A stretch of 64,000 nt of DNA, taken from contig MU004197.1 of assembly GCA_010093605.1 (NCBI GenBank), positions 1-64,000 of the forward strand. Direction: 5' to 3'. The DNA is from Lophium mytilinum (Eukaryota). This document shows, one piece after another, positions 1-54,364 of this stretch. The notes beneath the pieces were generated by a model. The model saw nothing but the letters and a program-made list of their open reading frames with translations. It was not told where the DNA came from and made no database searches. The position numbers and the translations under genes are program-made. Position 1 is the stretch's first letter. Each line of letters opens with the position of its first letter.

Positions 1-95
1 CCTAACCCTAACCCTAACCCTAACCCTAACCCTAACCCTAACCCTAACCCTAACCCTAACCCTAACCCTAACCCTAACCCTAACCCTAACCCTAA
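1..95 (+). repeat. Telomeric (CCCTAA)n tract, chromosome left end
   Basis: About 16 perfect CCCTAA units from base 1, ending ...cctaa|gagat. Confidence 0.98.
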
Positions 96-2040
96 GAGAT
101 ACCTAGATTTAAGCTTTAGTAAACGTAGCTTGGAATTAATTCCTAAGGCCGGCTTGCAGTTAATTAACGCCTTAAGGGCTAAGTTATAGGGGCGTTGTTG
201 TCTAATCTAAGTACTCTAACTTCAGCCAAGCTATGCTATACTTCTTAAGGGAGTCTAATAATCTAAGGCCATACAAGGTTATAGAATTCCGGGGGTCTTT
301 TTAATTTATCCACTCTTTTTTCCATAGTACAGATAATTAAGTAGAATTACTATATCTAGCAGTAATTTGCGCAAGGCGGATATAAAGAGATGCTAAATAA
401 CTATTTACTAGCTATTTATTTAGTGTTGCTACATGCCTAGCATTACGCCCGGGGGTAACCTAAAGAGATAGTACCTAGAAAAGAAATACCTAGCAATTAA
501 GGTTTATAATAGTAAAGGTATTAACTTCTTCTATAGAAAGAACCTAGTAGGGGTAATAAGGCTTACTACTATTATCCAGCCTATCCTTTATAGTAAATTC
601 GGGACTTACGCTTTCTTTAAGTTGCTTAAGTATAGTAAAAAGTACTTGGAACTTGGTTTAAACCCTATAGGATAAGTGTCTATCTCTCTAGAGTATAGTA
701 TAGTGGCGTTAGAGAATAGTAGTAAAACTATTCTAAAGCTATTTTCTTTTTAATAATCTTCTAGAGCTACCTGCTGCTTTAAACTACTACTTAATTATTT
801 TAGTTAAGAACGCAAGAGCTTCTAGTTAAGTATTATAAAAGGGCGTAATATTCTTAACGGGTAACTTAAGCATAATCTTATTACTATTATAGATTTTATT
901 ATATGCTATACTACTAATACGGCTATAGTTACCTGCTTAGAGCTCTACTATTAGAGATAATGCGCCCTAGGTAAGATAGTAGGGGTATAATGTTGTATAA
1001 ATCTTTTCTTTTCCGCCGTTGTAGAAGTAAGTGGCCTAGTAGTTATTATAGCTAGTTTTGCGTAGAAGGGTAACCCCGGTATCTAGCTAATTAGTAGTTA
1101 GAATATCTTTATATCTATAGTTAACCTATATCCCCTTATCTAGCATATTAATTAGGTTTTTATTAAAAGTAGTAGTTAAAGTACATAGTAGCTAATCCCT
1201 GCTTTAAATTATACTTAAGAACTTATATACTATTTTTAGATTGTAACCTAAGACTACTAGGAATACTTCTTTAAATAAATCTTCGGGTATAGTATCTATT
1301 CCTATAAAGTTTTCTGCGTTATAAAGAACTTAGTCCTAGAATTCTTAGAGTTAATACTATAGAATTATATACTTAGTATTAACATAAGAGTCTCTAGATA
1401 ATATTATATATTTTTCTTTCTTAACGCTTGCTTTACCCTATATAATATTAAAACTATATAGTATATGCTGCCACTTATTAGGTGTTAGAGTATACTTTAC
1501 TGCAGGTAAGATAATATTATTAAGCTAAGCTGCTTATATTATATCTAGTAGATATAAAGTGTCGCCCTTCTACTTATTTAGTATTAGCATCTAGGGGAAA
1601 AATACGTAAGTTTTAAATTAATGCTTACACCCGTGCCCTATATAAAGCTGCTTTATTATATAGAGCTTATAGCCGCGTATTATAATATATTAGTTTTAAG
1701 TAATACTTTAGAGGAAGAATAGTTATAGAGATAGTAAGAAGTATAAATTATAGGCCGCTAAAGTAGAGATGCCGATAATAACGCTATTAATGTTATATAC
1801 TTACCGGATTTTAATCTCTTTATTCGCTATAAAGCTAGCTTTAGACCTTATAAAACTAAGCCTTAGAGTTTCTATATTACTAGTTTCTCCACTTAATATT
1901 AATTTCTATAGGACATTATTAAAGTTGTTAGGATTATCCTCTCTCTATAATAGCTCTAGTTAGCTCCTAAGATAGAAGGCTGCATTAGCTATAATAGGCT
2001 CTTATTAGGAGGGAAGGTTCTAAGCTAGAAGAAAGCTAGT
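96..2040 (-). pseudogene. RIP-inactivated ORF core (uncharacterised fungal protein; motifs VYDIDS, WLDNIILPA, GGIAYNKIYNSNK, SYGVRTEFRV, YGLGL..YGMAW..DW)
   Basis: Manual translation of one minus frame from 2040 to 96 with RIP reversal (TAA/TAG to CAA/CAG/CGA/TGG, A to G) gives protein-like sequence with no frameshift. An acidic and Pro-rich coding-like stretch lies upstream to about 3700. Confidence 0.7.
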
Positions 2041-4299
2041 AACTTAGCTAAGGGATCTACTCTAAGGAACTATTATATAGTTACTTACTATATTATAATA
2101 TTAGCTACTATATTATCTAAATAGAAAGAGTTAAGATATATAGTAAGTATACTAGACTTCTAACGCTAATTAGATTATACTTACTACATATAGAGTATTT
2201 ACTAATAGATTATTATACCTATATATATTAGCTTTATATAAACTATAGAGCTTATAATACTTACCTATTAGGGTCTATCTTATCTATAACTTTGTCTATA
2301 ATCTTGCTGTTGCCTTTACTATTTAAGGCTGTATTATCTACCCTACTGCCTTAATTCTCTAGTATAACTTTATTAAGTAAACCCGGTAATTTATCTATAG
2401 TATCTTACTGTCCTTATATATATACACCTTCTCTACCCTCTTTAACTCTATTATCTAATACCTTATCTACATCTGCACCTACTTCTACCTTATTCTTAAG
2501 TTAGGTAAATTCCTCTTCTACAACCTTAGTTACTAGCGTTGGGCGGAGAGATAATAAGGCAGCGTACTACTCCATCTAAACCTAACTATTATTATGCGCT
2601 AGTTGCATAAACTAACTTATATTAGCTAGTATTTCCTTCTTATCTATTTATTCTATAGCGTCTATTCTAGAGAGCACTTCTATGGCCTTATTTTATTGCG
2701 CTAAGAATAATTCTACTATAATCTCTTTATTAGTTATTTACGCAAGTATATAGAGCAGTAATATAGTAATAAGGGCTAGTATTTAGCGTTATATTATTAG
2801 TTCTAGTTATATAGAAGTAGAAGCCGCTATAGTTTATTAAGCGCGTAAACTTGCGTATAGTATTATAGCCGTCTATAGGGTATTCTAGAGGGTAAGAATA
2901 GTATATACGCCTGTATATACGTGTAGTATAGCTATAGGTTTAAGAAACGCTTTATAGAGATAGTGTATAGCGGGTAGAATCTAGCCCGGAGCTCTATTAT
3001 TATTATTTGCGGCTTGCTAAGGTGTCCCTACGCTAGAAGGTAGTAATAGAGAGGGCAACACCTCTCTAGCATTTAGAGGCGGTGGTAACGCAGGTATATA
3101 AGGAGATAATGCAGAAGATGCAGGTAATAGCAACTCTAATACTGCCTCTTCTACTTCTTTATCTACTTGGGCTACTTCTTTATTTACTTTACTTTCTTTA
3201 GCTGCTTCTTCTTCTTCTTTAACTACTACTCCCTTAATAGTCTATATAATAGTATACTTACTACTATTACTCTAATCTTACTCTGCAGCTTCCGTTAATT
3301 CTATATTACTTTAAATTTTAGGTATATATTAGGCTGCTCTTAACTTACTAGAGCGTATACTACTGCTAGTAGACTGCTAGGTATAAGAAAGTTATATTAG
3401 TTAAGTAGGTTAAAAGGTTAGAGGAGCGAGAGAATAAGTACTGCTATAAGTAGCCCGCCCTAGAGTAGAATATTAGGTAGGTTTAGTAGATAGAGAAGGA
3501 GCGGTAGAATAGATACTACTATAGATAGACCGCTATAGAGAAGTATATTACATAGGTTGCATAGGTTAGATAAATAGAGAAGAAATAGTAGAACGGGTAC
3601 TACTATAAGTAGACCGCTGCGGAGAAGTATATTACGTAGATTAAGTAGAGGTAGAAGGTAATAATTCTTCTATTAAGACGGGTTCTACTTAAGTTTATTA
3701 GAACCTAACCGTAAATACTAGGAGATTGCAAAAGATATACTAATTATAAGTTGTGCAATAGTTTCCTCTAAAGGCTCCTAAGGTGCAATTAGTTGTTAAA
3801 AGGGCGTGGGCGCAGGGCGGGTGGGATAAGGGGCCCTAATATTTATACTAGAAAGACCTCTAGGGTTTTTAAAGATAATTAGAAATAGATCTAGAATAGA
3901 AGTAGAAGTAGGCTTATTAGCCTCTCCTACTACAGCTATTTAGTCTACAGCCCTCTTCTTTTTATCTCTCTTGCGTTGGTTTAAATCCACTATTAAACGT
4001 AATTTAGCTGCTTTTCGCTCTTCTTTATTCTAGTACTTTCGGGGGCGTCCCATGCTAACTACTAGGTGTAGTAGTAAGGGGGATAATAGTTTAGAATATA
4101 GAGCTAAGGAGCGGAAAGCGGTTAGAGAGTATAATTAGTTAAAAATAAGGATTTATTAACATTCTTATTGTAGGGCTTACCCTGCCTAACCCGTTTTAAC
4201 ACCCCTTACGGATACGGCCACTTAGTTAAGGTCGCTAGGGAAGGGCCCTAGCAGGAAGGCTTCCTGCGGTAGCCCTATTAATTACTTTATCTATAAACG

Positions 4300-5250
4300 T
4301 TATATAAACTGTATCCTGCCCTTTACTTTATATATTTTATTTAATGCGGCTGAAATTTCTATTACATAAGAATACTATCTAGTAGTAACCCGTGCTAAGG
4401 CGAGGCTATTATAACGCAAAACCCTTTCTATTATATCTATTACCCTCTATAGGCACCTACTACTAGGACTTCGCCTTTTCTATAATGCTTTAATTTTAAT
4501 TACGTATACTGTATATAGTATTATAGCTCCGTTATAGTATCTTAATATCTAGGAGTTATTATATGCAGCAGTAGGAAGGCTGCTTAATTATAGGGCTATA
4601 CTCTGCGCTGCTAGCCGCCCTCTTTCCTTACCCTCTACACCCACCTAGAGCTATAACTATAGCCTATAAAATATTTCTAAATTGCTAGAATGCTATTACA
4701 TTATATAATAAGTAATTTTTCTTATAAATATCTTTAACCTTGTATTATAGTGGTTCTATGCAGCGCTAGTTAAGGTCTTTATTAAGTGCAAGGCTAGCAT
4801 TACGCTAAACTCTTTAAGTAACTTCTATTATTTAGAATCTTACCTCTATATATAACTGCCACTACTACTATAGCCTGCATATTAATTCTAAGTTAATAGA
4901 TCGCTATTACATTACGTATTATATATAATTCTTTGTATATTTCTTCTATACTACATTATAGTAGTTGCATGCAGTAGTAGTTGCACTAATTCTTAAGCGC
5001 GAGGCTATTCTTACGCTAAACCCTTTAAGTAATTTCCATTCTATGCCTGCGCACTCTGCGGCCTCTCTACACCCACCTTAAGCCACCACCACGGCTTGTA
5101 AATTAAATTAAAGTTAATAGAACGCTATTGTATTACATTCTAAGTATTATTCTTTACATGCATACTCTATTTTACGTCGTGGTAGTTAAATGCGGTGGTG
5201 CGAGGTTATACTGCACGCAATTCTTAAAGGTTAATTTTCTCTATATTAAA
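4300..5250. repeat. Degenerate ~210-bp tandem array (about 5 units) at the inner end of unit 1
   Basis: Anchor atgc(a/g)g at 4344, 4563, 4758, 4969, 5190. Anchor gc(g/a)agg(c/t)ta at 4400, 4788, 4999, 5200. Shared ctctacacccacct and ttacgctaaa..ctttaagtaa blocks. Confidence 0.6.
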
Positions 5251-5260
5251 CTCGCTTCTC

Positions 5261-5290
5261 CCTATCTAACCCTAACCCTCTAGCCCCTAT
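5261..5290 (+). repeat. Interstitial degenerate telomere repeat at the unit boundary
   Basis: cctatctaaccctaaccctctagccccta. Confidence 0.6.
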
Positions 5291-5294
5291 AATA

Positions 5295-8200
5295 TAAAAC
5301 TAAGCCTTAGAGTTTCTATATTACTAGTTTCTCTACTTAATATTAATTTCTATAGAATATTATTAAAGTTATTAGAATTATCCTCTCTCTATAATAGCTC
5401 TAGTTAGCTTATTAGATAGAAGGCTGCATTAGCTATAATAGGCTCTTATTAGGAGGGAAGGTTCTAAGCTAGAAGAAAGCTAGTAACTTAGCTAAGGGAT
5501 TTACTCTAAGGAACTATTATATAGTTACTTACTATATTATAATATTAGCTACTATATTATTTAAATAGAAAGAGTTAAGATATATAGTAAGTATACTAGA
5601 CTTTTAATACTAATTAGATTATACTTACTATATATAGAGTATTTACTAATAGATTATTATATCTATATATATTAGCTTTATATAAACTATAGGGCTTATA
5701 ATACTTATCTATTAGAGTCTATTTTATTTATAACTTTATCTATAATCTTACTATTACCTTTACTATTTAAGGCTATATTATCTACTCTACTACCTTAATT
5801 CTCTAGTATAACTTTATTAAGTAAACCTAGTAATTTATCTATAGTATTTTACTATCCTTATATATATATACCTTCTCTACCCTCTTTAACTCTATTATTT
5901 AATACCTTATCTATATCTATACCTACTTCTACCTTATTTTTAAGTTAGGTAAATTTCTCTTCTATAACCTTAGTTACTAGCATTAGGTAGAGAGATAATA
6001 AGGCAGCGTACTACTCTATCTAAACCTAACTATTATTATACGCTAGTTATATAAACTAACTTATATTAGCTAGTATTTTCTTCTTATCTATTTATTCCGC
6101 AGCATTTATTCTAGAAAGTACTTCTATAGCCTTATTTTATTACGCTAAGAATAATTCTACTATAATCTTTTTATTAGTTATTTATATAAGTATATAGAGT
6201 AGTAATATAGTAATAAGAGCTAGTATTTAGTATTATATTATTAGTTCTAGTTATATAGAAGTAGAAGCCGCTATAGTTTATTAAGCGCGTAAACTTATAT
6301 ATAGTATTATAGCTATTTATAGAGTATTCTAGAGAGTAAAAATAGTATATACGCCTATATATATATATAGTATAGCTATAGGTTTAAGAAACACTTTATA
6401 GAGATAGTATATAGTAGATAGAATCTAGCCTAGAGCTCTATTATTATTATTTACAGCTTACTAAGGTATTTCTACGCTAAAAGGTAGTAATAGAGAGGGT
6501 AATACCTCTCTAGTATCTAGAGGTAGTAGTAATATAGGTATATAAGAAGATAATATAGAAGATATAGATAATAGTAACTCTAATACTACCTCTTCTACTT
6601 CTTTATCTACTTAGGCTACTTCTTTATTTACTTTACTTTCTTTAGCCGCTTCTTCTTCTTCTTTAACTACTACTCCCTTAATAGTCTATATAATAGTATA
6701 CTTACTACTATTACTCTAATCTTACTTTATAGCTTCTATTAATTTTATATTACTTTAAATTTTAGGTATATATTAGGCCGCTTTTAACTTACTAAAGTAT
6801 ATACTACTACTAGTAGACTACTAGGTATAAGAAAGTTATATTAGTTAAGTAGATTAAAAGGTTAGAGAAGTAAGAGAATAAGTACTACTATAAGTAGCCC
6901 GCCCTAGAGTAGAATATTAGATAGGTTTAGTAGATAGAGAAGAAGTAGTAGAATAGATACTACTATAGGTAGACTACTATAGAGAAGTATATTACGTAGG
7001 TTATATAGATTAGATAGATAGAAAAGAAATAGTAGAATAGGTACTACTATAAGTAGACTACTATAGAGGAGTATATTATATAGATTAAATAGAGGTAGAA
7101 GGTAATAATTCTTCTATTAAGACAGGTTCTACTTAAGTTTATTAGAACCTAACTATAAATACTAGAAGATTATAAAAGATATACTAATTATAAGTTATAT
7201 AATAGTTTCCTCTAAAGGCTTTTAAGGTGTAATTAGTTATTAAAAGGGTATAGGCGTAGGGCGGGTAGAATAAGGGGCCCTAATATTTATACTAGAAAGA
7301 CCTCTAGAGTTTTTAAAGATAATTAGAAATAGATCTAGAATAAAAGTAGAAGTAGGCTTACTAGCCTCTTCTACTATAGCTATTTAGTCTATAGCCCTCT
7401 TTTTTTTATCTCTCTTATATTAGTTTAAATCCACTATTAAATATAATTTAGCTGCTTTTTACTCTTCTTTATTCTAGTACTTTTAGGGGCGTTCTATACT
7501 AACTACTAGGTATAGTAGTAAGGGGGATAATAGTTTAAAATATAGAGCTAAGGAGTAGAAAGTAGTTAGAAAGTATAATTAGTTAAAAATAAGAATTTAT
7601 TAATATTCTTATTATAGGGCTTACTCTACCTAACCTATTTTAATACCCCTTATAGATACAGCCACTTAGTTAAGATTACTAGAAAAGAGCCCTAGTAGAA
7701 AGGCTTTCTATAGTAGCCCTATTAATTACTTTATCTATAAATATTATATAAACTATATCCTGCCCTTTACTTTATATATTTTATTTAATGCGGCTAAAAT
7801 TTCTATTATATAAAAATACTATCTAGTAGTAACCTATACTAAGGTAAGGCTATTATAATATAAAACCCTTTCTATTATATCTATTACCCTCTATAGATAC
7901 CTACTACTAGGACTTCACCTTTTCTATAATACTTTAAATTTAATTATATATACTATATATAGTATTATAGCTCTATTATAGTATCTTAATATCTAGAAGT
8001 TATTATATATAGTAGTAGAAGGCTGCTTAATTATAGGGCTATACTCTATGCTACTAGCCGCTCTCTTCTTTTACTCTCTATATCTATCTAGAGCTATAAC
8101 TATAGCCTATAAAATATTTCTAAATTACTAGAATACTATTATATTATATAATAAGTAATTTTCCTTATAAATATCTTTAACCTTATATTATAGTAGTTCT

Positions 8201-8736
8201 ATATAGCGCTAGTTAAGGTCTTTATTAAGTATAAGGCTAGTATTACACTAAACTCTTTAAGTAACTTCTACTATTTAGAATCTTACCTCTATATATAACT
8301 ACTACTACTACTATAGCCTATATATTAATTCTAAGTTAATAGATTACTATTATATTATATATTATATATAATTCTTTATATATTTCTTCTATGCTATATT
8401 ATAGTAGTTATATATAGTAGTAGTTATACTAATTCTTAAGTGCAAGGCTATTCTTATACTAAACCCTTTAAGTAATTTCTATCCTATATCTATATACCCT
8501 ATAGCCTTTCTATATCTACCTTAAGCTACTACTATAGCTTATAAATTAAATTAAAGTTAATAGAACGCTATTATATTATATTCTAAGTATTATTCTTTAT
8601 ATATATACTCTATTTTATATTATAGTAGTTAAATGCAGTAGTATAAGATTATACTACACGCAATTCTTAAAGGTTAATTTTCTCTATATTAAACTTACTT
8701 CTCTCTATCTAACTCTAACCCTCTAGCCTCTATAAT
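5295..8736 (-). repeat. Subtelomeric repeat unit, copy 2 (truncated, more heavily RIP-mutated)
   Basis: Colinear with 1851-5293, and differences are almost all C>T or G>A in this copy (e.g. gccaccaccacggcttg vs gctactactatagctta). Ends ctatctaactctaaccctctagcctctataat. Confidence 0.92.
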
Positions 8737-11700
8737 TAAGTCTTAGCTAAATAGTATATTAAATATATATAATAATTTTAATTAATATAGCTAATATAGA
8801 TAGATAATACTTCTATATCTATCTACTCTAGCTAGTACTATACTATTCTTCTATCTATACCTATATTAGCCTCTACTAGTTATAAATACCTATATAATAA
8901 GATAAATAAGTAAGAGATTAGAGCTATAGAAAAAGTTAAAAAGAATATAAAAGTTATATAAGAGATAAGAGTATAGAACTATAAAAGATAGTAAGATTAA
9001 ATAGTATAAGAGTCTATATATCTAGCTAATCTACTTTATAATTAAACTATTCTATAGCCCGCCTTACTAAAGAAACTAGACTAGAACTATACTACTCTAA
9101 GGCAGAGCCTTATTATAACCTTATACTATTTTACTAGACTAGAATATAGATAGCTTAATATTTCTATATATAGGTAGTATAGAGTTATCTAAACTATAGC
9201 TATTATTAGAACTAAAAGTATAGCTATATAGCTAAATATTCTAACTAGGTATATAGATTCTATAGGGGGGGAATTTACTACTAGTAGACTGCCCTTCTAT
9301 TTTTCTATCTAGGGACCTCTCTACTATAGAGGAGTACCCTATAATATAGTATATAACTACTTATAGCGTAGTAACTAATAGAGGGCTAGAATTATAGAAA
9401 GAAGGCCTAAATAGTAGTAAAGAGGGTGTTTTAGACTAAGAGAGAAAAGAATATAATAGCTTAAAGTTGCATAATTTAGTTAGTAAAGGTAGAGGCGTTT
9501 ATTATTAATAATATAGAAGAGGGATATATACTATAGCTAAAGGAGATAGCTAGCAGGTTATTCGCGTTTAAGTAGATTATCTAACTAGGGATAAAGTTAG
9601 TAATAAGGGAATAGCTACGCGTTATAATATTAATACCTCTATTAGGGCCTTTAACTTAGCTAGCTATCTATCTAATAATATAGAATATAAAGTCTATAAT
9701 CTCTTAACTAACTACTATTCTAATAGCGTAGAAGATGCTATCTAGAAATAATAGTAGAAGGTAGTAGCGCGCATATAGTAATTAGTAGAAGTTAATATAA
9801 GTATATAAGTATAAGCTCTAGTTTAAGGTAATATAATAGAAGAGGTAATTATATAGATAGAAGAATTTAATTATATAGAATAATAGGGCTTTATTAAGGG
9901 GGGGATAGAGAAGAGGTATATAACTAGCTAAAGATACTAAGTTAATATATATAGACTATATCCGGCTAGCTCTATTATATTCTATTATAATAAATGCGCA
10001 ACTTACTCCCTTTTTATTCCCTTCTTTCTATACTACTTAATTATAATCTGCTTTACTTCTCTTTATAGTTATTATTCTCGCACTCTATCTTAAGAAATAG
10101 AATATTTTTTTACTATACGCCCTCTATCTATTATTTAGTAAGGCTTAATATTACCTACTTAAATATAGAAAAAGATAATATAGAACTATTTCTTTCTACT
10201 CTAAATAGAAACTTACTATATAACTTAAATATACTATACTATATACTCTATCTATAGTATATATTAATATATATATAGCTAATATATATAACTATAAATA
10301 GTAAAGAAGTAAAACTATGCTACCTTAAAACTAATTAATATAGTAATATATCTAGCTTTCTTAACTCTAATACCTACTAACTAATAATAAATATATAGAA
10401 CTTAATAAGTAAAAGAAAATATACTACTAGAATATTTTAAGACGGCAATACTATATTATCTTAGCCGTCTAGCCGCACCTTATCTCTTACTAGAAAGAGA
10501 AAATATAGTATAGAGAATAAGAATAGGTATATACCTATCTTCTAATCTAGTAATACTAACTTTTATATATAAATAGACTTTAAATATAAGATTAGCTTAT
10601 ATATATATTATAGCTACTCTACTAAATAGTATATACTAATAAATACCTATTAGGGTGCCGCCGTAGTCTAAAATAAGATAGCGGCTAGAATAGAAGCCTA
10701 TAGAGCTATTAACTAAATAACTAGGTCTAATATCTTTATATTAAGTAGTCTACTATTCTTCTCTTCTACTAGCCGCTTTTTAGGTATAGGTAGAGGTATA
10801 CCCGTTTATAACTATATTAGCTCCCTTAGTATAAAATAATATAGTAAAATAATTTAGATATAGAATAGTATAGATAGGTATACTAAAGTACTAACTATAA
10901 AGGTAAAATATATAGTAGTAGAAGAATAAATAAGATACTAGATACTTAGAAGTATAGTATTAGGTACTAATATAATTAGAGAATATAGTAATAACCTTAT
11001 AGCCTAGACTAAAAGTATTAAGCTAGATATATTTTAGTAAGTACTAATATAAATATAGATAAATATCTATAAAGACTAACTATTCTATACTTAAGCTAAT
11101 ATCCCTACTACTCTAGACCCTTTTTACGCGCGGAAGGTATATTACTTTCTTTCTACTTCTATAACTTTATATAATAGCTAATTATAATATATAACCTAGA
11201 TTTATAATACTTTTAGTTATTTCTATAACGCTATAATAAAGGTTACTTATAATATTATATAAGAATACTATAGTTTTAGTTCTATAACTCTAGATATTAC
11301 TAGTACCGCGTTAATACTAATAAAGAATTAGAACTATCTCTTTAGGGTAGATAAAGACTAAGTTAAGATTAGTTACTAATCTAGTATTAGATAGTATTCT
11401 AATAGATTATAGAGGCTACTAGTAATCTTTATAGCTAAGGCTATCTAGATAGTAGTTATAGACCTACTCTTTATAGAATAGTCTATAAACGCCTTAGAAA
11501 TATAAAGATACTTAAAAGAGTTTTTTAACCCCCTTTTAGGTAACACTATTATATATATATATACTTGCCTCTACTATACTATTAGTAAATATATCTTAGG
11601 CTAGAAGCGCATAAACCTAATTTATAGAGTTACTACTACTAGTATTAACTATCTTAAATTACTATATAGTCTACTATCTAACACGCAATATATATATTAT

Positions 11701-12339
11701 ATACTATTCTCTAGCCTAGATATCTAGCGCATGTGTTACTAGCTCTAATAGTCTACTAGAATATTAAAATTATTAAGATTAGTAATAGTTATATAATTCT
11801 TAAAAATATATATAGGTATTACTATCTATATAATGCGTAAAGTCTATAATATATATAAAGTTACTATAGACTATAAAGCTCTAGTAGAGGTAGTAAAAAG
11901 AAATAACTAGATATACTAGTATAACTTTAAATTTCCTACTATATATAATAATTATATATTTAGTATATAAGGCCCTATCTATATTATTATCTATCTATCT
12001 ATAACCTAGGCGGATTAGGCAGTTTTAAAAGGTTAGATAGAGGAGGTAGATAGCTATATTTATAAGAACTATAAAGTAGTTATTAACTATAATAATTACC
12101 TATAATACTAGATTATCTATAATTAAGAATTATCCGCGTAGCCTGCGCGTAAATTTTATATAAGAAGTAGATAAACTTTTATAAAGTAGTATAAAGCCTA
12201 TAGAGTAGTAAAATATATAGTTTTCTAGAAGGTTATATAAGTAACTAGTATTCTCTATATATTTTTTAATTTAGAAATTTCTAATACTATATATACTATA
12301 GAAAATAGAAAGTATATATAGTAAAATAGATATACTATA

Positions 12340-12432
12340 TAGCTTTACTATAAGTAGCCTTATATATAGCCTTATATAAGGCTTATATATATAGCCTTAT
12401 TTATAGCCTTATTTATAGCTTTATATATAGCT
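12340..12432 (+). repeat. ~12-bp tandem repeat (tagccttat[a/t]ta)
   Basis: Successive tagccttatata / tagccttattta units. Confidence 0.7.
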
Positions 12433-12650
12433 AAGTATAGGCTATTAGAAATAGTAAAAATATATAATAAAATAAAAAGGCTATATAGCCTTACTATAAA
12501 GCGCTAGAGTAGTATTTTAAGCTCTCTAGGCTAATTAAAAGACTAGATAAAATAGAGGATATATATATACTAAGAAGGGAGTATACTTATACTAATTAGA
12601 GGGGGTACTAGTACTAGTCTCTATAAAAAACCCTTAACTTTAATAAAGCT

Positions 12651-12757
12651 TTAGCCTTATTTAAAGTTTTAACCTTTAAAGAAGCCTTAACCTTATTTAA
12701 AGTTTTAACCTTTAAAGAAGTCTTAGCCTTATTTAAAGTTTTAACCTTTAAAGAAGC
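12651..12757 (+). repeat. 3 x 36-bp tandem repeat
   Basis: ttagccttatttaaagttttaacctttaaagaagcc at 12651, 12687 and 12723. Confidence 0.9.
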
Positions 12758-13179
12758 TATATATAGTAGTTTAAATATATTAAGTAAAAATAGTTAGCTT
12801 ATATTTTTATATAAATAGTTTAATATTACTTAAATAGGCTAGTATAATAGTAGTAGTAAATAGCTTTAGTAAATATAATATTTTAAGCTAGTCTCTATTA
12901 AGTAAATAGGCTAATACTAGTATAGCTAGTAGATAACTCTAAAAGTATTCTATTATAATAGTAATAATATTATTTTTACTTTAATAATAAGTACTTTAAA
13001 AATAATAAGCTAAATTAGTAGTAACTTTTAGGCTATATAATAAAAGTACTACTAATACTAACTACTTCTAGTAAGTAGCTTTATACTAGTACTATATAAG
13101 AGACTTTAAATATATAGAAACTATTTATAGTATATTATTATTAAGGCTAAACTCTTATTTTTAAAGAAGCTATATAATA

Positions 13180-15373
13180 TTACTACTATAAAGAGCTATT
13201 AAATAATAAGCTTATTAAAACTCTTAATAATTTAAAATATAGTAATAATATATATTATAAGTACTAGAAGTAGATAGTAATAGCTAAAGATATACTAGCA
13301 TCTTTCTATAATATTTATAGTATAAATCTTTAAAATACTATAGTTTATACTACTAAGATATTCTCTTACTTATAATTTATAAAAGTTATAATAGACTATT
13401 ATTTAGCTAATATAGTCTTTTCTGCCTAGATGCGGGAGTCCCCCTATAAGCTTTTAGCATGTAGTTAGAATATCGCTAAAACTAGGATAAACTCTACGAT
13501 AGGGTTTAGTGGAACTAACGACTCTAAATATACTCTACCGTCGACAATTAAGTAGGTAGAGCTGGACGCCCAGTTGCATACTAACGCAACTGTGCTGAAC
13601 GATCTGCTAAGTGCTAAGAACTCTTATCAAGACATCCCTCATGACCAGGATCAGAATATCACCGCCGATGTTCTGCTAACAATGGTGATCGGTCTGACCC
13701 CACCCGTACGAGTCATCCTCGACGTGGGAGCGCAAGTGCTAGACCTTCAGAATCATGAAATTGCACAGTTGTGGCTGGACAAGACTACGAATGACGATGC
13801 CAAGGCCGTCATTTTCGTAACGAAGCAAGATTTAATAGCAGTTCTGGATCGTGCTGGCACCTTGGAGGCGTTCGCGGTCTCCCCGTGGCAGCGCCAGATG
13901 GATCAGTGCTTCGTCTATCTCGACTAAGCTCATATACGGGGTACGGATTTGAGGCTTCCAATCGACTACCGAGCGGCGGTGACTCTTAGCCCTCGTTTGA
14001 CTAAAGATCGTTTTGTGCAAGCGTGTATGCGGATGAGAGATCTTAGTAAAGGCCAGTCAGTGGTTGCTTGTGCTCCTAAAGACATCCAGAAGCAAATCAG
14101 AATCTCCTGCAACAAGGCCGTGGACGAAAAGATCACCATGCTCGATGCTATTGAGTGGTGTATCCGAAATACTTGGACTCAGATTCAAACAGAAGTGCCA
14201 GTCTGGGCCCAGCAGGATGAGCGTTACGAGCATCAACAACAGCAACTCAATACGGCGCTTGCAAGTAATCCCGATGCCTTGAGCGTTTCGGTGGTAGAGA
14301 GCCTGAAAGAAATAGAGTCTCAAACCTTAGACATGCGATATGGAATCACTTCTCCGAGTTTGCACCAGGCGTGGAGATTCGATCTCCCGAAAGACAACGT
14401 ACAGGAGCCCGTTCAAGCTTCAGGCAATCCTTTAGCCTCAACATCGAAGAGAGTCAAGATGTCCGTAAATACGGAAGCAATTATTTCAAGGTGCCAAGAT
14501 TTCAACATCAGCCCTTACGAAGGCCCTGCCCTACACGAGGAGCAAGAACGCGAGTTGTGTCCGGAAAACGAACGAGAGCAACAGGTGGAGCGGCCACGTC
14601 CGATGCAGGCCCTCTCGCATGTCACCCACGCCGCGATCAAGACATTCGCTCGGACCGGTCAGTGGGGCAACCTCAAGAACGAAGCCGTACTTCCTGCCTT
14701 CTGCTCGCTGAAAACCACAAGCGCTGGTAAACTTCTCCGACCGAACGAGTGGCCTGAGGATCTCTTGGTATCCAAGTCCTTCGCACAATCCGTGAAAGCA
14801 CCAAAGGGAGAGACGACAGACGCATACCTAAAACCAGTAAATTGGATACTTAGCCGACAAACGGACGACGGCACACCACTCGGACGATGGGAACTTGTGA
14901 TAATCAGCCCTGCGGAAGCCAACGAGCTGCTCCCGACAATCATGATGCACAAAATGGTCGCACTTCACCTCTACTCGCCACGCACTCGGCAGTCAATGCG
15001 GTCACTCGATGACCTATAGTTTTGTGTCATCCCGCGACTTGAAACCAGAGGTGTACCCAGCTTGCTGATTACGCAGCTGAACCTGTTCGCCGGGCAGCTC
15101 TACCAGAACCACGATGAAGCGAACAAGACACTGTGCGAGTTCTTGGGTCTTTGGCATGTGCATCTGCTCGCACAGAGTGACGGTTTTATGAAGAAGGATG
15201 ACAGGCATTATGCTGGTCTTCACGACAGAAGCTGTCCCTTCACTGTCTCGCCTATGAACTTCGTGAAAGAGTGGCTAGGTATTCGGAGGAGAGGCCAGAG
15301 CTTCGAGAGGACGCACATGGGTGCACTGGTTGTAGTGGGAAGGGCGCTGACCGGGAAGGACTTTGAGTCTTAG
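13180..15373 (+). pseudogene. C-terminal part of a DUF3638/DUF3645-type large protein (often annotated ubiquitinyl hydrolase-like), 5'-truncated and RIP-damaged
   Basis: One frame with motifs GFSGTND, HTNATVL, VILDVGAQVL, VYLD*AHIRGTDL, LTKDRFVQACMRMR, LHEEQERE, ISPAEANELLP, QLNLFAGQLY, THMG. In-frame stops at 13925 (TAA) and 15017 (TAG), with many more 5' of 13570. Confidence 0.85.
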
Positions 15374-15929: not shown

Positions 15930-16863
15930 TCACCCCCGCCCTACAAGCACCTCCCGCAAAACCTCCCCCCACGCCCCCTCCCCCTCCCTCACCAGCCCCG
16001 CCTCCGCCGCCTTAACCGCCCACATCGCCCACTCAATCCGCCCATCCACCACCCGCACATCCCGCCCCTTAACCCTAACATCCACCTCCCTCGTACTCTG
16101 CAACGATATCACAAGATCTCTTGCAATCTCCGCCAGCGACCGCCCCCATGGCCTCCACTCCCGCACCGCCACTGCCTCCAGCGCAACCAACCGGTCCAGA
16201 CACGAAAACACGTTCTCGTGATAAGGCGTACGTGGCGCCTCCCCGAAGACGCGGGTCGCTACCTCCGTCGTGTAGTGCCGATGGCACGATTCGTTGGAAG
16301 GCCGGGAGACGGTGGTAGGTCGGTTGTTTACGGGGGCGGTCACCTGTAGCGCGCCGTTGGGGTGGGTTCGGCGAATGATTAGGGTGCGAGCCTTGTTTGT
16401 GGGAGAAGCGGGGAGGTCTGGCATCGAGCATTGGATGCTCTGCATGAAGCTCGCGGGTTCCGCGTCGTTGATGTGGAGCGTGGCGATGTCGGGCATCGGG
16501 GCCGAGACGTCGCTCATGAAGCTGATGGGGTCGGGGTCGTCGGAGGCGGGGATGAAGCGGCGCGGCGTTTTGGCTGTTTGGGGCGGGTTTTGCGTAGAGG
16601 TGCTGTGAGTGGAGGGGGCTGCGTTGGCGTCAGGCTTGGTTGCTGTTTCGGCCTGGGGGGTAGGCTGTAAGAGATGGTCAGCAAGTGACGAGTATGTGGG
16701 ATTTGGGTAGACCTACGGCTGCGTTTGCATCGTTGTCGTTAGGCACGTCTGTATCCCTAGGCAGATTCTGGAAAGGATTGGTGGGAGTAGGATGGGCTTG
16801 ATCTCCTCTGGCGGGCTGACGGGTTCCCTTCTTTGTCTGCTTCGTCTTCTTCGCACGTGCCAT
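15930..16863 (-). CDS. Hypothetical protein, 'R.dWA.W' family member A (2 exons)
   Basis: ATG at 16863 (MARAKKTKQ). Intron 16716-16665 (GTAGGT..GCTGAC..TTACAG) joins in frame to ORF 15930-16517. C-terminal VDGRIEWAMWAVKAA is shared with paralogs. Confidence 0.75.
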
Positions 16864-21798: not shown

Positions 21799-22614
21799 TC
21801 AAAAAACCCCACCTTCCCTCCTTCTCCCCTCCACCTGCCTCACCACCCCCCCACACTCCACGGACCACGCATGAAATAGCCCCTCATGCACCGCCCTCAC
21901 CGCCCACTTCGCCCACGCAATCCGCCCATCTACCTCCGCGGGCTCCATCCCCTGCCGCTCGATCTCGATCGTCCGGTCGTTTTCTAGCGCGATGACCATG
22001 TCGATCGCGATGTCTACTAAGAAGCGTTTGACGGGTTCCTGAGCCTCACGGGCGAGGACGCGGTCGAGGTTTGAGAAGATCTCTTTGGCGAGGGCGGGGT
22101 TGGAGGGGGCGTGGCGGAAGATGGCGGCGGTGGTGGAGGGGGGGCAGTGGTGCGGGCAAGGGGGCGGAGGTATGATGGTGGAGACAGGGGGTCTTGGAGG
22201 CGGGTTCATACCAGCGAGGCCTCTGGGTGTGGACTCGGCTCCAGGAACACGCTCTTCGTGGCCAGGTGACTGGGTTGACTGCAAGTCGAGTTTCGAGATA
22301 TCGGGCATTGGGACCGATATGTCTTCCATGTAGGGGTGTGGTGGGGCGCGCTGTGCGGGTGGAACGATATTGTTTTCATTGTCCGAAGCTTCATCCTAGG
22401 GTATATGTGAGCAGGTTGGCCTTGATGCGATTTTGATTGTCAGAATGCTTACAAGGGCAGACCGAGACTGCTGGCGTGTTGTAGGGACGCGGTAGCCCGG
22501 GAATGGAGCAGCGTTGCTACTGCTCGGTACACGTGGAGGTGCTTTCCGTGCCTGTTTCGGCTTGTTCTTGGCTGTCTTTCTGGCTGCGCTGCGCTGAGGG
22601 GTCTTTGCAGGCAT
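21799..22614 (-). CDS. Hypothetical protein, 'R.dWA.W' family member B (2 exons)
   Basis: ATG at 22614 (MPAKTPQRSAARK). Intron 22452-22396 (GTAAGC..CTAG) joins in frame to ORF 21799-22329. SVPMPDI and VDGRIAWAKWAVRA match member A. Confidence 0.75.
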
Positions 22615-25202: not shown

Positions 25203-25643
25203 TCAAGAATGACCTTCGACTCGCTCCATCGCCACTCTAACCTGACGATGCATGGATCCACACGTATGGTTTGGCTCATGGAACAACTTGATCTTGGCTG
25301 CCGACGCCACCCACTTAGCCCAGTCGACTCGTCGCTGAACCACCATCACGTCTTCTCCCCTGCTTTGCACAGCCATCATCGCGTCCCAATCTAGGTAGTC
25401 GCCCAACGCTTCCGCAATGAGGCCTGGCGAGCGGGGATCTCGTTTGTACTTCTCGGCCGTCTCCACCTCAGTCTTGTACAGTCGCTCGACTCGGTCTACC
25501 ACGTCCTTCAGAACCTCCATGGTCTTGCCGTGGCGAAGATATTCGGGGATCAGCTCGTGGAGGGACTTTGCCTCGTCGTCGGTACAGTGGTTGGGGCATC
25601 GGGTGGGGGTGTTGATGGGAGTGATAGATTGGTTGGAAGGCAT
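25203..25643 (-). CDS. Hypothetical protein, 'R.dWA.W' family member D
   Basis: 146-aa ATG ORF. RGEDVMVVQRRVDWAKWVASAAKIKLFHEP matches the adjacent paralog closely and members A/B weakly. Confidence 0.75.
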   Translation of the reverse strand: MPSNQSITPINTPTRCPNHCTDDEAKSLHELIPEYLRHGKTMEVLKDVVDRVERLYKTEVETAEKYKRDPRSPGLIAEALGDYLDWDAMMAVQSRGEDVMVVQRRVDWAKWVASAAKIKLFHEPNHTCGSMHRQVRVAMERVEGHS

Positions 25644-26538
25644 ATTGGGTACGGTTTTCTGCGTTAGATCGAATTAGAGACTGAAACTTCAAAGGCGTTG
25701 ATTTGAGGGAAAAGGAGATCAGGCAATTATCGCGAGCTGACTGGGATAGTACCTTATGTGTTTCGCGAGAGGGATGATTGTGCAGTGGCTGAAAATGAAA
25801 GCAGCTTGTTTGTAAGTTGAAAGATTGACGCTCCAGCGTAACTATAGTGAACAATCGTTGTGTCGGCGTCTGAAAACCACTACTGTAACCTTGAGAGAAA
25901 CGAAAGTTGAGGCCGAGTTTACCAAACAGCGGTGAAGAAGGTAGGTCGTTCTATACGTGGCAGAAATCTCTTTAATTCAGTCGGGGACTCACAATGGCGT
26001 TGGGATGTTTTCAAGAGGTCAGAGCACCTCAGACGGTTGAAAGTGGTTCCCAGAATGGTGGGCACTATACTCTGAGGCACTGTCACAAACCTGGGCACAT
26101 TATCTTTCTATCTCTTCAAGACTTATAGTGATATGGTAAGCACCACAGGAAGCTACCAAGCAGGTAGGCCGAGTGAATGCTCGAGAGACCTCTTTGATCC
26201 TACTTTCCGGCGTTTGAGTCGTCTCGGAACATTGAATTCACCGGAGGACTCTCATACGGTGTTAAGCGAGTTAGCCCCCGGACATCTACCGAGACGCTTA
26301 AACTCGCTTACGCTTCTGCCTGCTGCATGTGAAAGTATGACTAACCATGTTTGGAATTCTCCACGTGCGACTATTTATTGACAACCTTTCCCGCTCGACC
26401 TCGCGACTCGCACCCACACCTCTCCACGCCCTATCGACTTGGATTCAGCCAACGAGTAAGTATAAAGTTCCATCTTCGTCATTTGACCATATCCCAGTCA
26501 GCGTACCCTTCCAAAGCTATAACATTCACTCGTCAGCG

Positions 26539-38700: not shown

Positions 38701-39425
38701 AGAAACGCTGCCGCGAGCAGCTCAAGACAATCGAGATGCACGTCAAAGACCTCGAGCGGATGGACAAGCAAGCCGAGCGCATCTACAACTCCATCACAGA
38801 CCTCCTCGACTTGAAACAGAAACACGCGAACGCGTTCGAGGCGCGCTTTGCGAGGGACCAGGCGGCGGGGACGGCGCGGCAGAGCCAGACGATTATGGTG
38901 TTTACGATTGTCACGATTATTTTTCTGCCGCTGAGTTTTATAGCGGCGTTTTTTACGATTAATATTGAGGAGTTTCCGCGCTTGCCGGATGGGACCGAGG
39001 CGTTGCCGTTGGGGTATGTGAGTAAGTATATGTTTGGGATTGGGTTTGCGATCTCGATTCCGATGATTGTGATTGCGCTGAGTTTGGATGATATTGGGGA
39101 TTATTTTAGGGAGGCGAAGAGGCGGTGGCGGCATCGGAAGGCCCGCAGGCGCGCGAAGAAGCTTAACCGGGGGCGGGTGGGTGCGATGACGGAGAAGACT
39201 GACGCTCTTGAGCTGTTGCGGGTGGAGCAGATGTTGTCGGCGAGGAGGAGTGTGGAGGATGAGTGGATTGGGGAGGGGTTGTTGCCCGTGGCGAGTCGGG
39301 GGACGGTGCAGAGTGTGAGAGTGAATGGTAATGGGAGGGTGGGGAATGGCGGGATTGAGGGGATCAAAAAGGTCAATACCGGGTTTCGGATTCGGACGAG
39401 TCGCGATGTTGAGAGGGGGTTGTAG
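35765..39425 (+). CDS. Ankyrin-repeat + CorA-like Mg2+ transporter domain protein (2 exons)
   Basis: Multiple TPLH/TAL ankyrin repeats. Intron 36936-36996 joins in frame. WIHLPANNM, FMPYLHFE, RRTLDQF, MVDQLWMW, FTIVTIIFLPLSF. Confidence 0.92.
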
Positions 39426-53513: not shown

Positions 53514-54364
53514 GGCTGTGGCGGCTGATGGTGCTATGTCGAATCGGATTGTCGAATGGGGTGTTGTGTTGGTGGTGTTAGGTGGGAGAGTTTCAGAGAT
53601 GGTGTGACGGAAAATCCTATGTCGACAAGAATTATAGACACAGAAATTGCGCAGAGACAGTGAAAGGACCATCTGCGCTAATAAAGCATGTTGCGTAAAA
53701 AGAGTGGTGAATGAGGTGCATCTTCGCAGGTAGGCTTTGTCATATGATCTGGCGCGGAGAAACAAAACTCCGTGTAGACAGTTCGATTTTCCAAAGAGTA
53801 TTCGCGACTTCGTTGATGAGCGATTGATGAGATGTGGTATGTTGGAAGAGGTCGTAATGCCCGCCGATGATGGAAAACGATGGCAAGCACCAAGACTGAA
53901 TCAGCGATGCTCCTGACTCTTTCAGTAGAAGCTTCATGTAGGAAATGTCCTGCCCGGGATGTTGGTCATGTGCGAATCACGTGGTATTGTCTTCAAATAC
54001 TCTATCCGGTAGGTAGCTTCGAAATAGGGCGGCAGGAAGGTGCACATGAACTTCGACAGCTGGTTTGTTTTTGAAAGGACGCCCTGTTGGCAGGTCTTGG
54101 CTTCAGATGAAGTTGGAATTTGATAACAGGCGCCCGTAAGCAAGTAAAATGGACAGCGTAGAAACAAACCACATAGGCCACACGGCATGACCGGAGAACG
54201 AACAGTGGAGGAAGTGATAGATGGAAAGTTCGTAGATCGTAATAGCTAAAAGTAAAGAAAAGGACTTAGGACAGACGCACACACCCGTCTAAGGCGGCAC
54301 AGCAACCTTGAAGTGTCCGAACATATGAAGCACTCCAAAGGAAATGTACGCAGCCTTATAAATC

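What the first reader, a model, noticed from the sequence alone, without database searches (positions are those of the whole stretch)
96..8736. Candidate telomere-associated mobile element in tandem at the chromosome end
Seen: two head-to-tail copies share the same inner end, made of a degenerate CCCTAA motif and a ~210-bp repeat array. They are truncated at different points on the distal side (copy 2 at 5295, copy 1 by the telomere). Both carry a long minus-strand ORF pointing to the telomere. Segment 96-1850 is single-copy here yet RIP-mutated, implying further copies elsewhere. I could not find RT, RecQ helicase or DDE motifs, so it does not read like MoTeR-type retroelements or telomere-linked helicase genes. 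Inference: an undescribed element that is added to, or recombines between, chromosome ends.
Basis: partly seen in the sequence, partly recalled or inferred. Interest (0 to 1): 0.85.

Follow-up and report, generated by a model that had tools for sequence, protein, structure and literature searches.

The report
RIP-degraded repeat stacked at chromosome end
At the tip of a fungal chromosome a mutation-riddled 5-kb repeat sits next to an older, cut-down copy of itself, each ending in a short telomere-like motif; this looks like DNA added to a worn chromosome end, but nothing here shows it is a new kind of mobile element.

Summary
The window is the left end of a Dothideomycete chromosome. (CCCTAA)15.8 is followed by 13 kb of AT-rich, RIP-mutated DNA. 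The tandem duplication is real: 1849-5292 and 5293-8736 are 90% identical, and 339 of 344 differing columns are transitions. Both copies end in four ~200-228-bp repeats and a telomere-like tract (CTAACCCTAACCCT) 13-14 nt before the boundary.

The "long minus-strand ORF" is not there. No frame stays open beyond 74 codons, and stop density is about that expected from base composition in all six frames. A RIP-invariant period-3 signal does hint at dead coding sequence.

New here: the RIP level drops sharply at the copy 1/copy 2 junction (index 0.43 against 0.08). The terminal 5.2 kb therefore behaves as one younger block laid bluntly on an older, RIP-saturated, truncated copy. That implies a source copy elsewhere.

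No RT, helicase, transposase, ribozyme or other homologue was found. No genome, reads or related contigs could be examined, so copy number and termini elsewhere are untested.

My best reading (0.42) is a Y'-like subtelomeric repeat copied between chromosome ends by end repair. The main rival (0.25) is a RIP-killed Coprina- or MoTeR-type telomeric retroelement. Interest is modest.

The parts
1..95 (+). Terminal telomere tract, C-rich strand, (CCCTAA) about 15.8 units; the window starts at the chromosome end
96..1848 (.). Distal segment of the terminal block. It is single-copy within the window. It is moderately RIP-mutated with no gradient towards the telomere, and carries a weak RIP-invariant period-3 signal at about 846-2045.
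1849..5292 (.). Copy 1 of the 3444-bp unit: GC 34%, RIP index 0.45, and 150 CpA still present counted on both strands
5293..8736 (.). Copy 2 of the unit, truncated distally. It is RIP-saturated (GC 25%, index 0.09). It carries 321 C>T/G>A changes relative to copy 1, against 18 the other way.
2496..3395 (.). Purine/pyrimidine period-3 signal (S/N 13.4 for 2346-3245). It is repeated in copy 2 at 5946-6845 (S/N 11.9). It may be a relic of coding sequence; the strand is undecided.
3346..3650 (.). Four tandem repeats of 75-84 bp (same array in copy 2 at 6790-7093)
4433..5292 (.). Array of four repeats of about 200-228 bp. They are 60-70% alike, or about 85% in purine/pyrimidine coding. The same array lies in copy 2 at 7876-8736.
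5258..5292 (+). Degenerate telomere-like tract at the proximal end of copy 1. The core CTAACCCTAACCCT is at 5266-5279, in the same orientation as the terminal telomere, and is followed by 13 non-telomeric nt and then the junction.
8701..8736 (+). The same tract at the proximal end of copy 2, with core CTAACTCTAACCCT at 8709-8722. It differs from the copy 1 tract by two C>T changes.
8737..13180 (.). Unrelated RIP-saturated AT-rich block (GC 22-30%) between copy 2 and the first recognisable gene. It shares no homology with the unit, even in purine/pyrimidine coding. It has its own period-3 relic at 10446-11345.
13181..15370 (+). Context only. This is the 5'-truncated C-terminal quarter of a DUF6606/DUF3638/DUF3645 giant gene of about 3066 aa. 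RIP bleeds into its first ~270 bp. It is not part of the unit.

Best explanation
Segment 96-8736 is a RIP-inactivated, telomere-adjacent repeat with no recognisable gene left. It is present as one long terminal copy (96-5292) stacked on an older copy that lost its distal 1.75 kb (5293-8736).

The most likely history has four steps. (1) An earlier copy sat at this end and was mutated to saturation by RIP. (2) The end was eroded or broken back to 5293. (3) The end was repaired by copying or capturing the terminal 5.2 kb, with its telomere, from a less RIP-mutated copy at another chromosome end. The route would be microhomology-mediated break-induced replication or end-joining of a terminal fragment, with the donor breakpoint just inside its short interstitial telomere-like tract. 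(4) Few or no sexual (RIP) cycles have followed.

In function and behaviour it resembles yeast Y' elements and the Pyricularia subtelomeric tandem arrays bounded by interstitial telomeres. It is a passively recombining subtelomeric repeat rather than an autonomous transposon.

Shown: the duplication, the shared telomere-like end, the transition-only divergence, the RIP step at a blunt junction, and the absence of any detectable homologue. Inferred: the existence of a donor copy elsewhere, the order of events, and the repair route.
For: The tandem copies differ almost only by transitions (339 of 344 differing columns) and are 99.88% identical in purine/pyrimidine coding. Copy 2 has lost most of the CpA still present in copy 1: 27 against 150 counted on both strands, and 134 of the 321 extra changes fall at CpA/TpG sites. 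The changes run evenly along the unit apart from its first 250 bp.

The RIP index is 0.43 (213/499) over 96-5295 and 0.079 (54/683) over 5296-13295. The adjacent 400-bp windows read 0.73 and then 0.07 at the junction, and there is no gradient in 96-1848. RIP leaking from a neighbouring repeat gives a gradient (PMC2973834, passages read).

The junction 5292/5293 shares at most one T. The telomere-like core occurs only at the two unit ends in the 64 kb outside the telomere.

Nothing suggests an enzyme. Pfam gave no family at E<=0.1 and one chance-level match at E 0.55. No open frame exists. Two protein searches on element translations gave nothing: the 2730-2939 minus ORF pair and the 847-2046 minus reading. 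Rfam and tRNA scans gave nothing.

There is precedent. [quoted passage not shown] This chromosome end also shows an older truncation, because the giant gene is cut at about 13181.
Against: No second locus was seen, so a donor copy is inferred and not shown.

A telomere-primed recombination event at the interstitial tract should leave pure telomere repeats at the join. Instead, the same 13-14 non-telomeric nt follow the core in both copies. The join therefore needs a non-homologous step.

An identical unit end at two joins is also what a transposon with a fixed terminus would give.

The period-3 signal suggests the unit once encoded protein, which the passive-repeat reading does not explain.

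Unequal RIP of two tandem copies cannot be excluded as the cause of the step. I found no data on how evenly RIP treats tandem copies in this fungus.
Confidence: 0.42

Rival explanations
1. The unit is a RIP-killed telomere-targeted retroelement, either an endonuclease-deficient Penelope-like element of Coprina type or a MoTeR/FoTeR-like non-LTR element. It may be a non-autonomous derivative. Its RNA, with the + strand as sense, was reverse-transcribed from the 3' end of an uncapped chromosome end. Each addition therefore carries the same 3' terminus with its telomere-like tract. Older proximal copies are 5'-truncated by erosion.
For: The architecture fits. The element abuts the telomere. The copies are head to tail. 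The older copy is truncated on the distal (5') side. A telomere-like tract on the C-rich strand lies at the proximal (3') end. The same terminus occurs at both joins.

The terminal block is at least 5.2 kb, against 4.5 kb for Coprina-1_Alen and 5 kb for MoTeR1. Tandem-repeat arrays near the 3' end resemble MoTeR1 (PMC12857005, sections 17 and 19 read).

Dothideomycete precedents exist. Coprina elements lie at 13 chromosome ends of Ascochyta lentis, with telomere repeats between the element and the chromosome (PMC13159263, section 17 read). Telomeric AT-blocks of Leptosphaeria maculans hold a Penelope element (PMC3105345, passages read).

A period-3 relic lies at 2346-3245, and in that phase the + strand has fewer stops than the - strand (6% against 11.7%). 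The RIP step fits a later terminal addition.
Against: No RT, thumb or endonuclease match appeared in six frames. No hammerhead or other Rfam hit appeared. No direct repeat (pseudo-LTR) links the 5' and 3' parts.

Only 2.3 telomere units are present, and 13-14 non-telomeric nt follow them before the join. FoTeRs are followed by 3-7 clean TAACCC units.

The + strand reading of the period-3 region is Leu/Ser/Thr-rich with very few charged residues, unlike an RT. In the distal region the minus strand looks more protein-like (7.5% against 10.2% stops). That orientation is the opposite of a terminal retroelement.
Confidence: 0.25
2. This is a simple in-situ tandem duplication of otherwise unique subtelomeric DNA, made in one event by unequal sister-chromatid exchange or template switching, and then mutated by RIP. 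It would be a natural relic like the Neurospora zeta-eta region. No other copies exist, and the telomere-like tract only marks a fragile or stalling site.
For: There are exactly 2.0 copies with one blunt junction. The divergence is only by transitions. No other homologue was seen in the window or in two metagenome scans. One event explains why both copies 'end' at the same nucleotide.
Against: The two copies are very unequally mutated, and the step coincides with the junction. Meanwhile 96-1848, which is single-copy under this model, is as RIP-mutated as copy 1 right up to the telomere, without the gradient expected of leakage (PMC2973834). Having the only internal telomere-like 14-mer of the window 13-14 nt from the breakpoint would be a coincidence unless it caused the event.
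Confidence: 0.2
3. This is an assembly artefact. Two diverged copies from different chromosome ends were joined by the assembler or by a chimeric long read.
For: The two halves have different RIP histories.
Against: Overlap-based mis-joins occur inside shared sequence and give one hybrid copy. Here the end of one copy meets a non-homologous internal point of the other, so such a join must exist in reads. Two small runs of the same organism hold 44% and 34% of the sampled words of 96-8736.
Confidence: 0.05

Closest known systems
Saccharomyces Y' subtelomeric elements
   Same: A multi-kb unit lies directly under the telomere and can stand in tandem. Each unit has a short internal telomere-type tract on its centromere-proximal side. 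It spreads between ends by recombination or break-induced replication.
   Different: Y' encodes a helicase whose ORF reads towards the telomere. No helicase or any other domain is detectable here. The internal tract here is only 2.3 units plus degenerate flanks. The distribution over other chromosome ends is unknown.
Pyricularia subtelomeric tandem arrays bounded by interstitial telomeres, and the telomere-attrition-induced replication model (PMC8381367, passages read)
   Same: A repeat of about 4 kb, with variously truncated copies, stands in subtelomeric tandem arrays whose boundaries carry telomere motifs. It is explained by repair of failed telomeres.
   Different: Those tracts are 6-34 clean repeat units. 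Here there are 2.3 units followed by 13-14 non-telomeric nt, so the join is not a pure telomere-to-telomere event. Here RIP has also erased any coding content.
Coprina-type endonuclease-deficient Penelope-like elements at Dothideomycete chromosome ends (Coprina-1_Alen, PMC13159263 section 17; RPP_Circe of L. maculans, PMC3105345 passages)
   Same: They occur in the same fungal class and sit at the very end of the chromosome. They are 4.5 kb, against at least 5.2 kb here. [quoted passage not shown]
   Different: Coprina has ORFs with coil, RT and Thumb domains directed to the centromere. It also has flanking direct repeats and, in PLEs generally, hammerhead ribozymes. None of these was detected here.
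MoTeR1/MoTeR2 and FoTeR telomeric non-LTR retrotransposons (PMC7367193 passages; PMC12857005 sections 17 and 19)
   Same: They form head-to-tail arrays in telomeres and show 5' truncations. They carry internal tandem-repeat arrays and have telomere repeats after the 3' end. MoTeR2 is a non-coding derivative. FoTeR copies decay by RIP.
   Different: No RT or REL-endonuclease is detectable here. There are no telomere-like variant repeats at the distal end (position 96). Neighbouring MoTeRs are separated by a TTAGGG tract, whereas here a degenerate tract is part of the repeated unit.
Neurospora zeta-eta region, a natural tandem duplication degraded by RIP (recalled, not read)
   Same: Two direct tandem copies have diverged about 10-14%, by C:G to T:A transitions only.
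   Different: Zeta-eta is 0.8 kb and internal to the chromosome. Here the unit is 3.4 kb, telomere-adjacent, bounded by telomere-like tracts, and the two copies are very unequally mutated.

Membership tests
MoTeR/FoTeR telomere-targeted non-LTR retrotransposons | ORF with reverse transcriptase (and REL-endonuclease) domain | tested here: not met
   Pfam on six frames of 96-5296 with X at stops gave no RVT or endonuclease family at E<=1. No frame is open. Heavy RIP could hide a weak match.
MoTeR/FoTeR telomere-targeted non-LTR retrotransposons | Head-to-tail arrays at the chromosome end with 5'-truncated members | tested here: met
   The copies 1849-5292 and 5293-8736 are direct repeats. The proximal copy lacks the distal 1.75 kb.
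MoTeR/FoTeR telomere-targeted non-LTR retrotransposons | Canonical telomere repeats directly after the 3' end or between neighbours (0.5 to >20 units in MoTeR; 3-7 in FoTeR) | tested here: inconclusive
   A core of 2.3 units is present, but 13-14 non-telomeric nt follow it and are shared by both copies.
MoTeR/FoTeR telomere-targeted non-LTR retrotransposons | Telomere-like variant repeats or a short telomere motif at the 5' terminus | tested here: not met
   The sequence from position 96 onward (GAGATACCTAG...) has no telomere-like run. The true 5' end may be missing.
MoTeR/FoTeR telomere-targeted non-LTR retrotransposons | Copies at several chromosome ends | not testable with these tools
Coprina/Athena endonuclease-deficient Penelope-like elements | ORF with DKN motif, RT and Thumb domains, directed towards the centromere | tested here: not met
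   There was no Pfam match. The + strand reading of the period-3 region is Leu/Ser/Thr-rich and not RT-like. No Coprina reference sequence could be fetched for a direct comparison.
Coprina/Athena endonuclease-deficient Penelope-like elements | [quoted passage not shown] | tested here: inconclusive
   Short degenerate tracts lie at 5258-5292 and 8701-8736.
Coprina/Athena endonuclease-deficient Penelope-like elements | Flanking direct repeats (pseudo-LTRs) and hammerhead ribozyme motifs | tested here: not met
   No repeat links 96-1848 to the 3' part, even in purine/pyrimidine coding. Rfam found nothing at E<=1 in 1-14000.
Telomere-linked RecQ helicase genes / Y'-type elements | RecQ or DEAD-type helicase ORF | tested here: not met
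   No helicase family appeared in six frames. The minus-strand read-through of 847-2046 had no relative among proteins of 440-1400 aa.
Telomere-linked RecQ helicase genes / Y'-type elements | Telomere-adjacent unit, tandem, with an internal telomere tract on its proximal side | tested here: met
RIP relic of a direct duplication | Copies differ by C:G>T:A transitions with a CpA bias; high TpA/ApT and low (CpA+TpG)/(ApC+GpT) | tested here: met
   339 of 344 differing columns are transitions. Of the 321 changes in copy 2, 134 fall at CpA/TpG sites and 110 at CpG sites.
Helitron, LTR or TIR transposons | Terminal inverted repeats, LTRs (an extra terminal repeat beyond two units), or TC...CTRR ends | tested here: not met
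   Within the unit there is no arm pair of the kind a TIR element has. The two weak inverted pairs found in 1-14000 (46 and 56 nt, 71-72% complementary) do not lie at its ends. Homology ends after exactly 2.0 units. The ends read TATAAAAC... and ...CTATAAT.

The most novel reading that the evidence does not exclude
The unit is a so far undescribed telomere-healing element of a Dothideomycete, with a fixed proximal terminus (...CTAACCCTAACCCTCTAGCCCCTATAAT). It is added directly to eroded, repeat-less chromosome ends, in the manner of Drosophila HeT-A, in a fungus that still has telomerase. It carries its own telomere-like seed and is now silenced by RIP. Both joins, at 5292/5293 and at 8736/8737, would then be independent additions.
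Probability: 0.1. Interest if true: 0.7.

Novelty: new member of a known kind. Interest (0 to 1): 0.33.

Why it matters
If the block-addition reading holds, this end records three layers of repair: a truncated gene, an unrelated RIP-saturated block, and two stacked repeat copies. It shows that RIP level can be used as a clock to order such additions.

That would be a useful case for how subtelomeres turn over in RIP-competent fungi. It is not a new principle. Recombining subtelomeric repeats and telomere-targeted retroelements are both already documented in related fungi.

Its value would rise sharply only if genome-wide mapping showed many chromosome ends carrying the same terminus, or a less-mutated copy with an enzyme.

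Tried and rejected
1. Whole-genome search for other copies. No genome is held for this window.

2. Sequencing runs. Six runs were listed. Two of the same organism hold 44% and 34% of the sampled words, and four air-metagenome runs hold 5-7%. Depth, spanning reads and alternative joins were therefore not obtained, and the small shares are no evidence of anything.

3. Earlier notes of this scan. Searches by place, by sequence and by relatives found nothing. A six-word search also found nothing. A two-word search returned only other organisms.

4. Metagenome contig scans. An unchanged 38-mer identical in both copies gave 0 loci. The 28-nt terminus pattern also gave 0 loci.

5. Protein homology.
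- Pfam on six frames with X at stops, for 96-5296 and for 8737-13934, gave no family at E<=0.1. One match at E 0.55 (SPAR) was taken as chance.
- An alignment of the 69-codon ORF pair 2730-2939 / 6174-6383 (minus) gave no hit among proteins of 37-121 aa. Not even the window's own ORF was returned, so that collection seems to hold no calls from this region.
- The minus-strand read-through of 847-2046 gave no hit among proteins of 440-1400 aa.

6. Idea that the unit is the RIP-degraded N-terminal part of the neighbouring giant gene: rejected. tblastn with 8 full-length relatives, and a profile of 30 relatives, matched only 13181-15370.

7. rDNA, tRNA/SINE or ribozyme origin: Rfam and ARAGORN found nothing.

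8. Weak similarity of 1106-1501 to the ~211-bp array. It scored 61.1 bits against a simulated best of up to 59.7 in 25 trials (which timed out before its other tests). This was treated as not established.

9. Strand of the putative relic ORF. Purine content by codon position and stop density gave conflicting hints, so the strand is left open.

10. The Gladyshev and Arkhipova 2007 paper on telomeric Penelope-like elements is not held. Its content is cited only through other papers.

Full report
WHAT THE WINDOW IS

The window begins with CCTAAC x15.8 (1-95), so it starts at a chromosome end. From 96 to about 13,450 the DNA has 22-38% GC. After that it rises to about 51% GC, with ordinary genes.

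A 772-aa CorA-type protein encoded at 37107-39425 has its best named relatives in Dothideomycetes. Lepidopterella is 67% identical, and many Pleosporales are about 60% identical. The protein's own contig is 1.6 Mb long. The host is therefore a Dothideomycete without a close sequenced relative among the named hits. No whole genome is held for it.

THE OBSERVATION

The tandem duplication is real. Copy 1 is 1849-5292 and copy 2 is 5293-8736, with a period of 3444 bp. In the pairwise alignment of 3445 columns, 3101 are identical. Of the 344 that differ, 339 are transitions, 3 are transversions and 2 are gaps. When the sequence is recoded as purine/pyrimidine, which RIP cannot change, the copies are 99.88% identical.

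The divergence is one-sided. Copy 2 carries 321 C>T or G>A changes relative to copy 1, against 18 the other way. Of the 321, 134 are at CpA/TpG sites and 110 at CpG sites. CpA counted on both strands falls from 150 in copy 1 to 27 in copy 2.

Each copy contains four 75-84-bp repeats (3346-3650) and four repeats of about 200-228 bp (4433-5292). Each ends with a telomere-like tract. In copy 1 this is CTAACCCTAACCCT at 5266-5279, followed by 13 nt (CTAGCCCCTATAA) and then the junction. In copy 2 it is CTAACTCTAACCCT at 8709-8722, followed by CTAGCCTCTATAAT.

The tract has the orientation of the terminal telomere. It is the only such motif outside the telomere. The RIP-tolerant pattern YYYTAAYYYTAAYYYT with up to 1 mismatch gave 15 matches. 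Thirteen are in the telomere and two are these tracts, against 1.0 expected by chance.

Segment 96-1848 has no second copy in the window. This holds in ordinary BLASTN and in purine/pyrimidine coding, where the remaining hits scored at most 70 bits against a null best of 62-83 bits. The segment is nonetheless RIP-like.

There is no long ORF. Stop to stop, nothing of 80 codons or more exists in 1-13500. The longest minus-strand stretch is 74 codons (3017-3241), and only 49 codons at the same place in copy 2. All six frames carry 147-195 stops in 1732 codons. That is about what I estimate from this base composition (the estimate is mine, not a computed control).

WHAT ELSE IS THERE

1. A step in RIP level. 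The index (CpA+TpG)/(ApC+GpT) is 213/499 = 0.43 over 96-5295 and 54/683 = 0.079 over 5296-13295. These are sums of the rows. The adjacent 400-bp windows read 0.73 and 0.07 on either side of the copy 1/copy 2 junction. Inside 96-1848 the values are 0.66, 0.24, 0.28, 0.47 and 0.25, so there is no decline towards the telomere.

RIP that leaks from a repeat into single-copy DNA forms a gradient (PMC2973834, passages read). The terminal 5.2 kb (96-5292) therefore behaves as one block with one history. Copy 2 shares the saturated state of the unrelated block 8737-13180.

The 18:321 asymmetry alone overstates the case. A saturated copy hides parallel hits in its partner. The step itself, and the equal level of 96-1848 and copy 1, remain.

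2. The junction is blunt. Homology of the starts begins at 1849/5293. Homology of the ends stops at 5292-5293/8736. At most one T is shared.

3. A RIP-invariant period-3 signal. In purine/pyrimidine coding, 2346-3245 has a period-3 signal-to-noise of 13.4, and the same region of copy 2 has 11.9. Segment 546-1895 has 5.8-6.8. Windows of the same size across 16-63 kb of the window have a median of 2.0 and a 90th percentile of 7.9.

The signal persists in 300-bp windows that hold no tandem repeat (2496-3095). This suggests dead coding sequence, or at least triplet-structured DNA. The strand is open. In the 2496-3395 phase the + strand has 6% stops against 11.7% on the - strand, but it reads as a Leu/Ser/Thr-rich string. 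In 847-2046 the - strand has fewer stops (7.5% against 10.2%) and looks more protein-like.

4. No homologue.
- Pfam on all six frames with X at stops gave no family at E<=0.1 for 96-5296 or for 8737-13934. One match at E 0.55 was taken as chance.
- Rfam at E<=1 and ARAGORN found nothing in 1-14000.
- Two protein-database searches with element translations found nothing. The first did not even return the window's own ORF, so it says little.
- Two exact-pattern scans of metagenome contigs found nothing.

5. The neighbour. From 13181 to 15370 the + strand encodes residues ~2349-3060 of a protein of about 3066 aa. Its full-length relatives carry DUF6606, DUF3638 and DUF3645. A profile of 30 relatives finds nothing upstream of 13181. 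The gene is therefore truncated there, and the tandem unit is not its missing part. This chromosome end thus has at least one older truncation.

HOW IT MOST LIKELY CAME ABOUT

The step in RIP level at a blunt junction is best explained by order of arrival. An older copy of the repeat, now RIP-saturated, lost its distal 1.75 kb. The end then received a 5.2-kb terminal block, with its telomere, derived from a less-mutated copy. This requires a second copy somewhere, at least at the time. That is an inference.

Three routes give this product:
- break-induced replication started with little or no homology just proximal to the donor's telomere-like tract;
- end-joining of a terminal fragment broken near that tract;
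- reverse transcription of an element RNA from the uncapped end.

I favour the first two (0.42 together). No enzyme or ribozyme trace was found, and the layout parallels two recombination-driven cases. One is yeast Y' arrays (recalled). The other is the Pyricularia arrays, in which interstitial telomeres bound a 4-kb repeat with truncated copies. Those were explained by telomere-attrition-induced replication (PMC8381367, passages read).

Against this reading, a telomere-primed copy should leave only telomere repeats at the join. Here both copies share 13-14 non-telomeric nt after the core. The join therefore needs a non-homologous step, and the tract can only have acted as a break or stalling site.

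RIVALS

A RIP-killed telomeric retroelement (0.25) fits the architecture well. It predicts head-to-tail copies, distal (5') truncation of the older copy, a telomere-like tract on the C-rich strand at the proximal (3') end, one terminus at both joins, and a size near 5 kb. It also has precedent in the same fungal class. Coprina-1_Alen lies at 13 chromosome ends, is 4.5 kb, has its ORFs directed towards the centromere, and has telomere repeats between the element and the chromosome (PMC13159263, section 17). L. maculans telomeric AT-blocks hold a Penelope element and a RecQ helicase (PMC3105345, passages). FoTeRs are followed by 3-7 TAACCC units and decay by RIP (PMC12857005, sections 17 and 19). 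MoTeR2 is a non-coding derivative (PMC7367193, passages). Every defining feature I could test was nevertheless missing or unclear: RT, pseudo-LTRs, hammerhead and clean telomere repeats. RIP may hide some of these.

A one-step in-situ duplication of unique DNA (0.20) explains the single junction. It does not easily explain the RIP step or the gradient-free RIP of 96-1848.

An assembly error (0.05) is unlikely. A mis-join would fall inside shared sequence, not between the end of one copy and an internal, non-homologous point of the other. The spanning reads could not be checked.

COMPARISON AND NOVELTY

As a kind of thing, this is a telomere-associated repeat that is stacked at a chromosome end and degraded by RIP. 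That is a known kind. As a sequence it has no relative that I could find. I could not show that it belongs to any named family. I rate it a new member of a known kind, with modest interest (0.33).

The boldest reading still open is a HeT-A-like healing element with a fixed terminus in a telomerase-positive fungus. I give it about 0.1.

LIMITS

No other locus, strain or read set could be examined. All conclusions about other copies are inferences from one 13-kb stretch. The supplementary figures and tables of the cited papers were not consulted.

Noticed in passing
13181-15370 (+): This is the 5'-truncated fragment (residues ~2349-3060) of a fungal protein of about 3066 aa. Its full-length relatives carry DUF6606, DUF3638 and DUF3645. 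The fragment starts just after the DUF3645 position. RIP from the AT-rich block bleeds about 270 bp into it, and there is one in-frame stop at 13925-13927. It marks an older truncation of this chromosome end.
   Followed up: yes
8737-13180: This is a RIP-saturated block unrelated to the tandem unit. It has its own purine/pyrimidine period-3 signal at 10446-11345 (S/N 10.7) and a 36-bp x3.5 tandem repeat at 12634-12757. There is no Pfam match in six frames. It is probably the relic of another repeat or gene.
   Followed up: partly
35765-36979 and 37107-39425 (+): An ankyrin-repeat ORF lies directly upstream of the CorA-type ORF. Most relatives (about 1130-1260 aa) carry both ankyrin and CorA Pfam domains in one protein. 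Here the gene is therefore either split or joined by an intron.
   Followed up: no
47556-48620, 49613-51685, 52560-53672 (-): Three neighbouring minus-strand ORFs share an N-terminal Cys/His-rich (RING-like) motif of the form L..FL...L.E.P..C.IC...F. They look like a local paralogous family.
   Followed up: no
15930-16712, 21799-22395, 25203-25673 (-): Three minus-strand ORFs share a C-terminal motif (DGRI.WA.WAV.A...GLF-like). This is another small subtelomeric paralogue family of unknown function.
   Followed up: no
96-8736 against public runs: Four air-metagenome runs of 2024 hold 5-7% of the sampled 31-mers of the element region.
   Followed up: no
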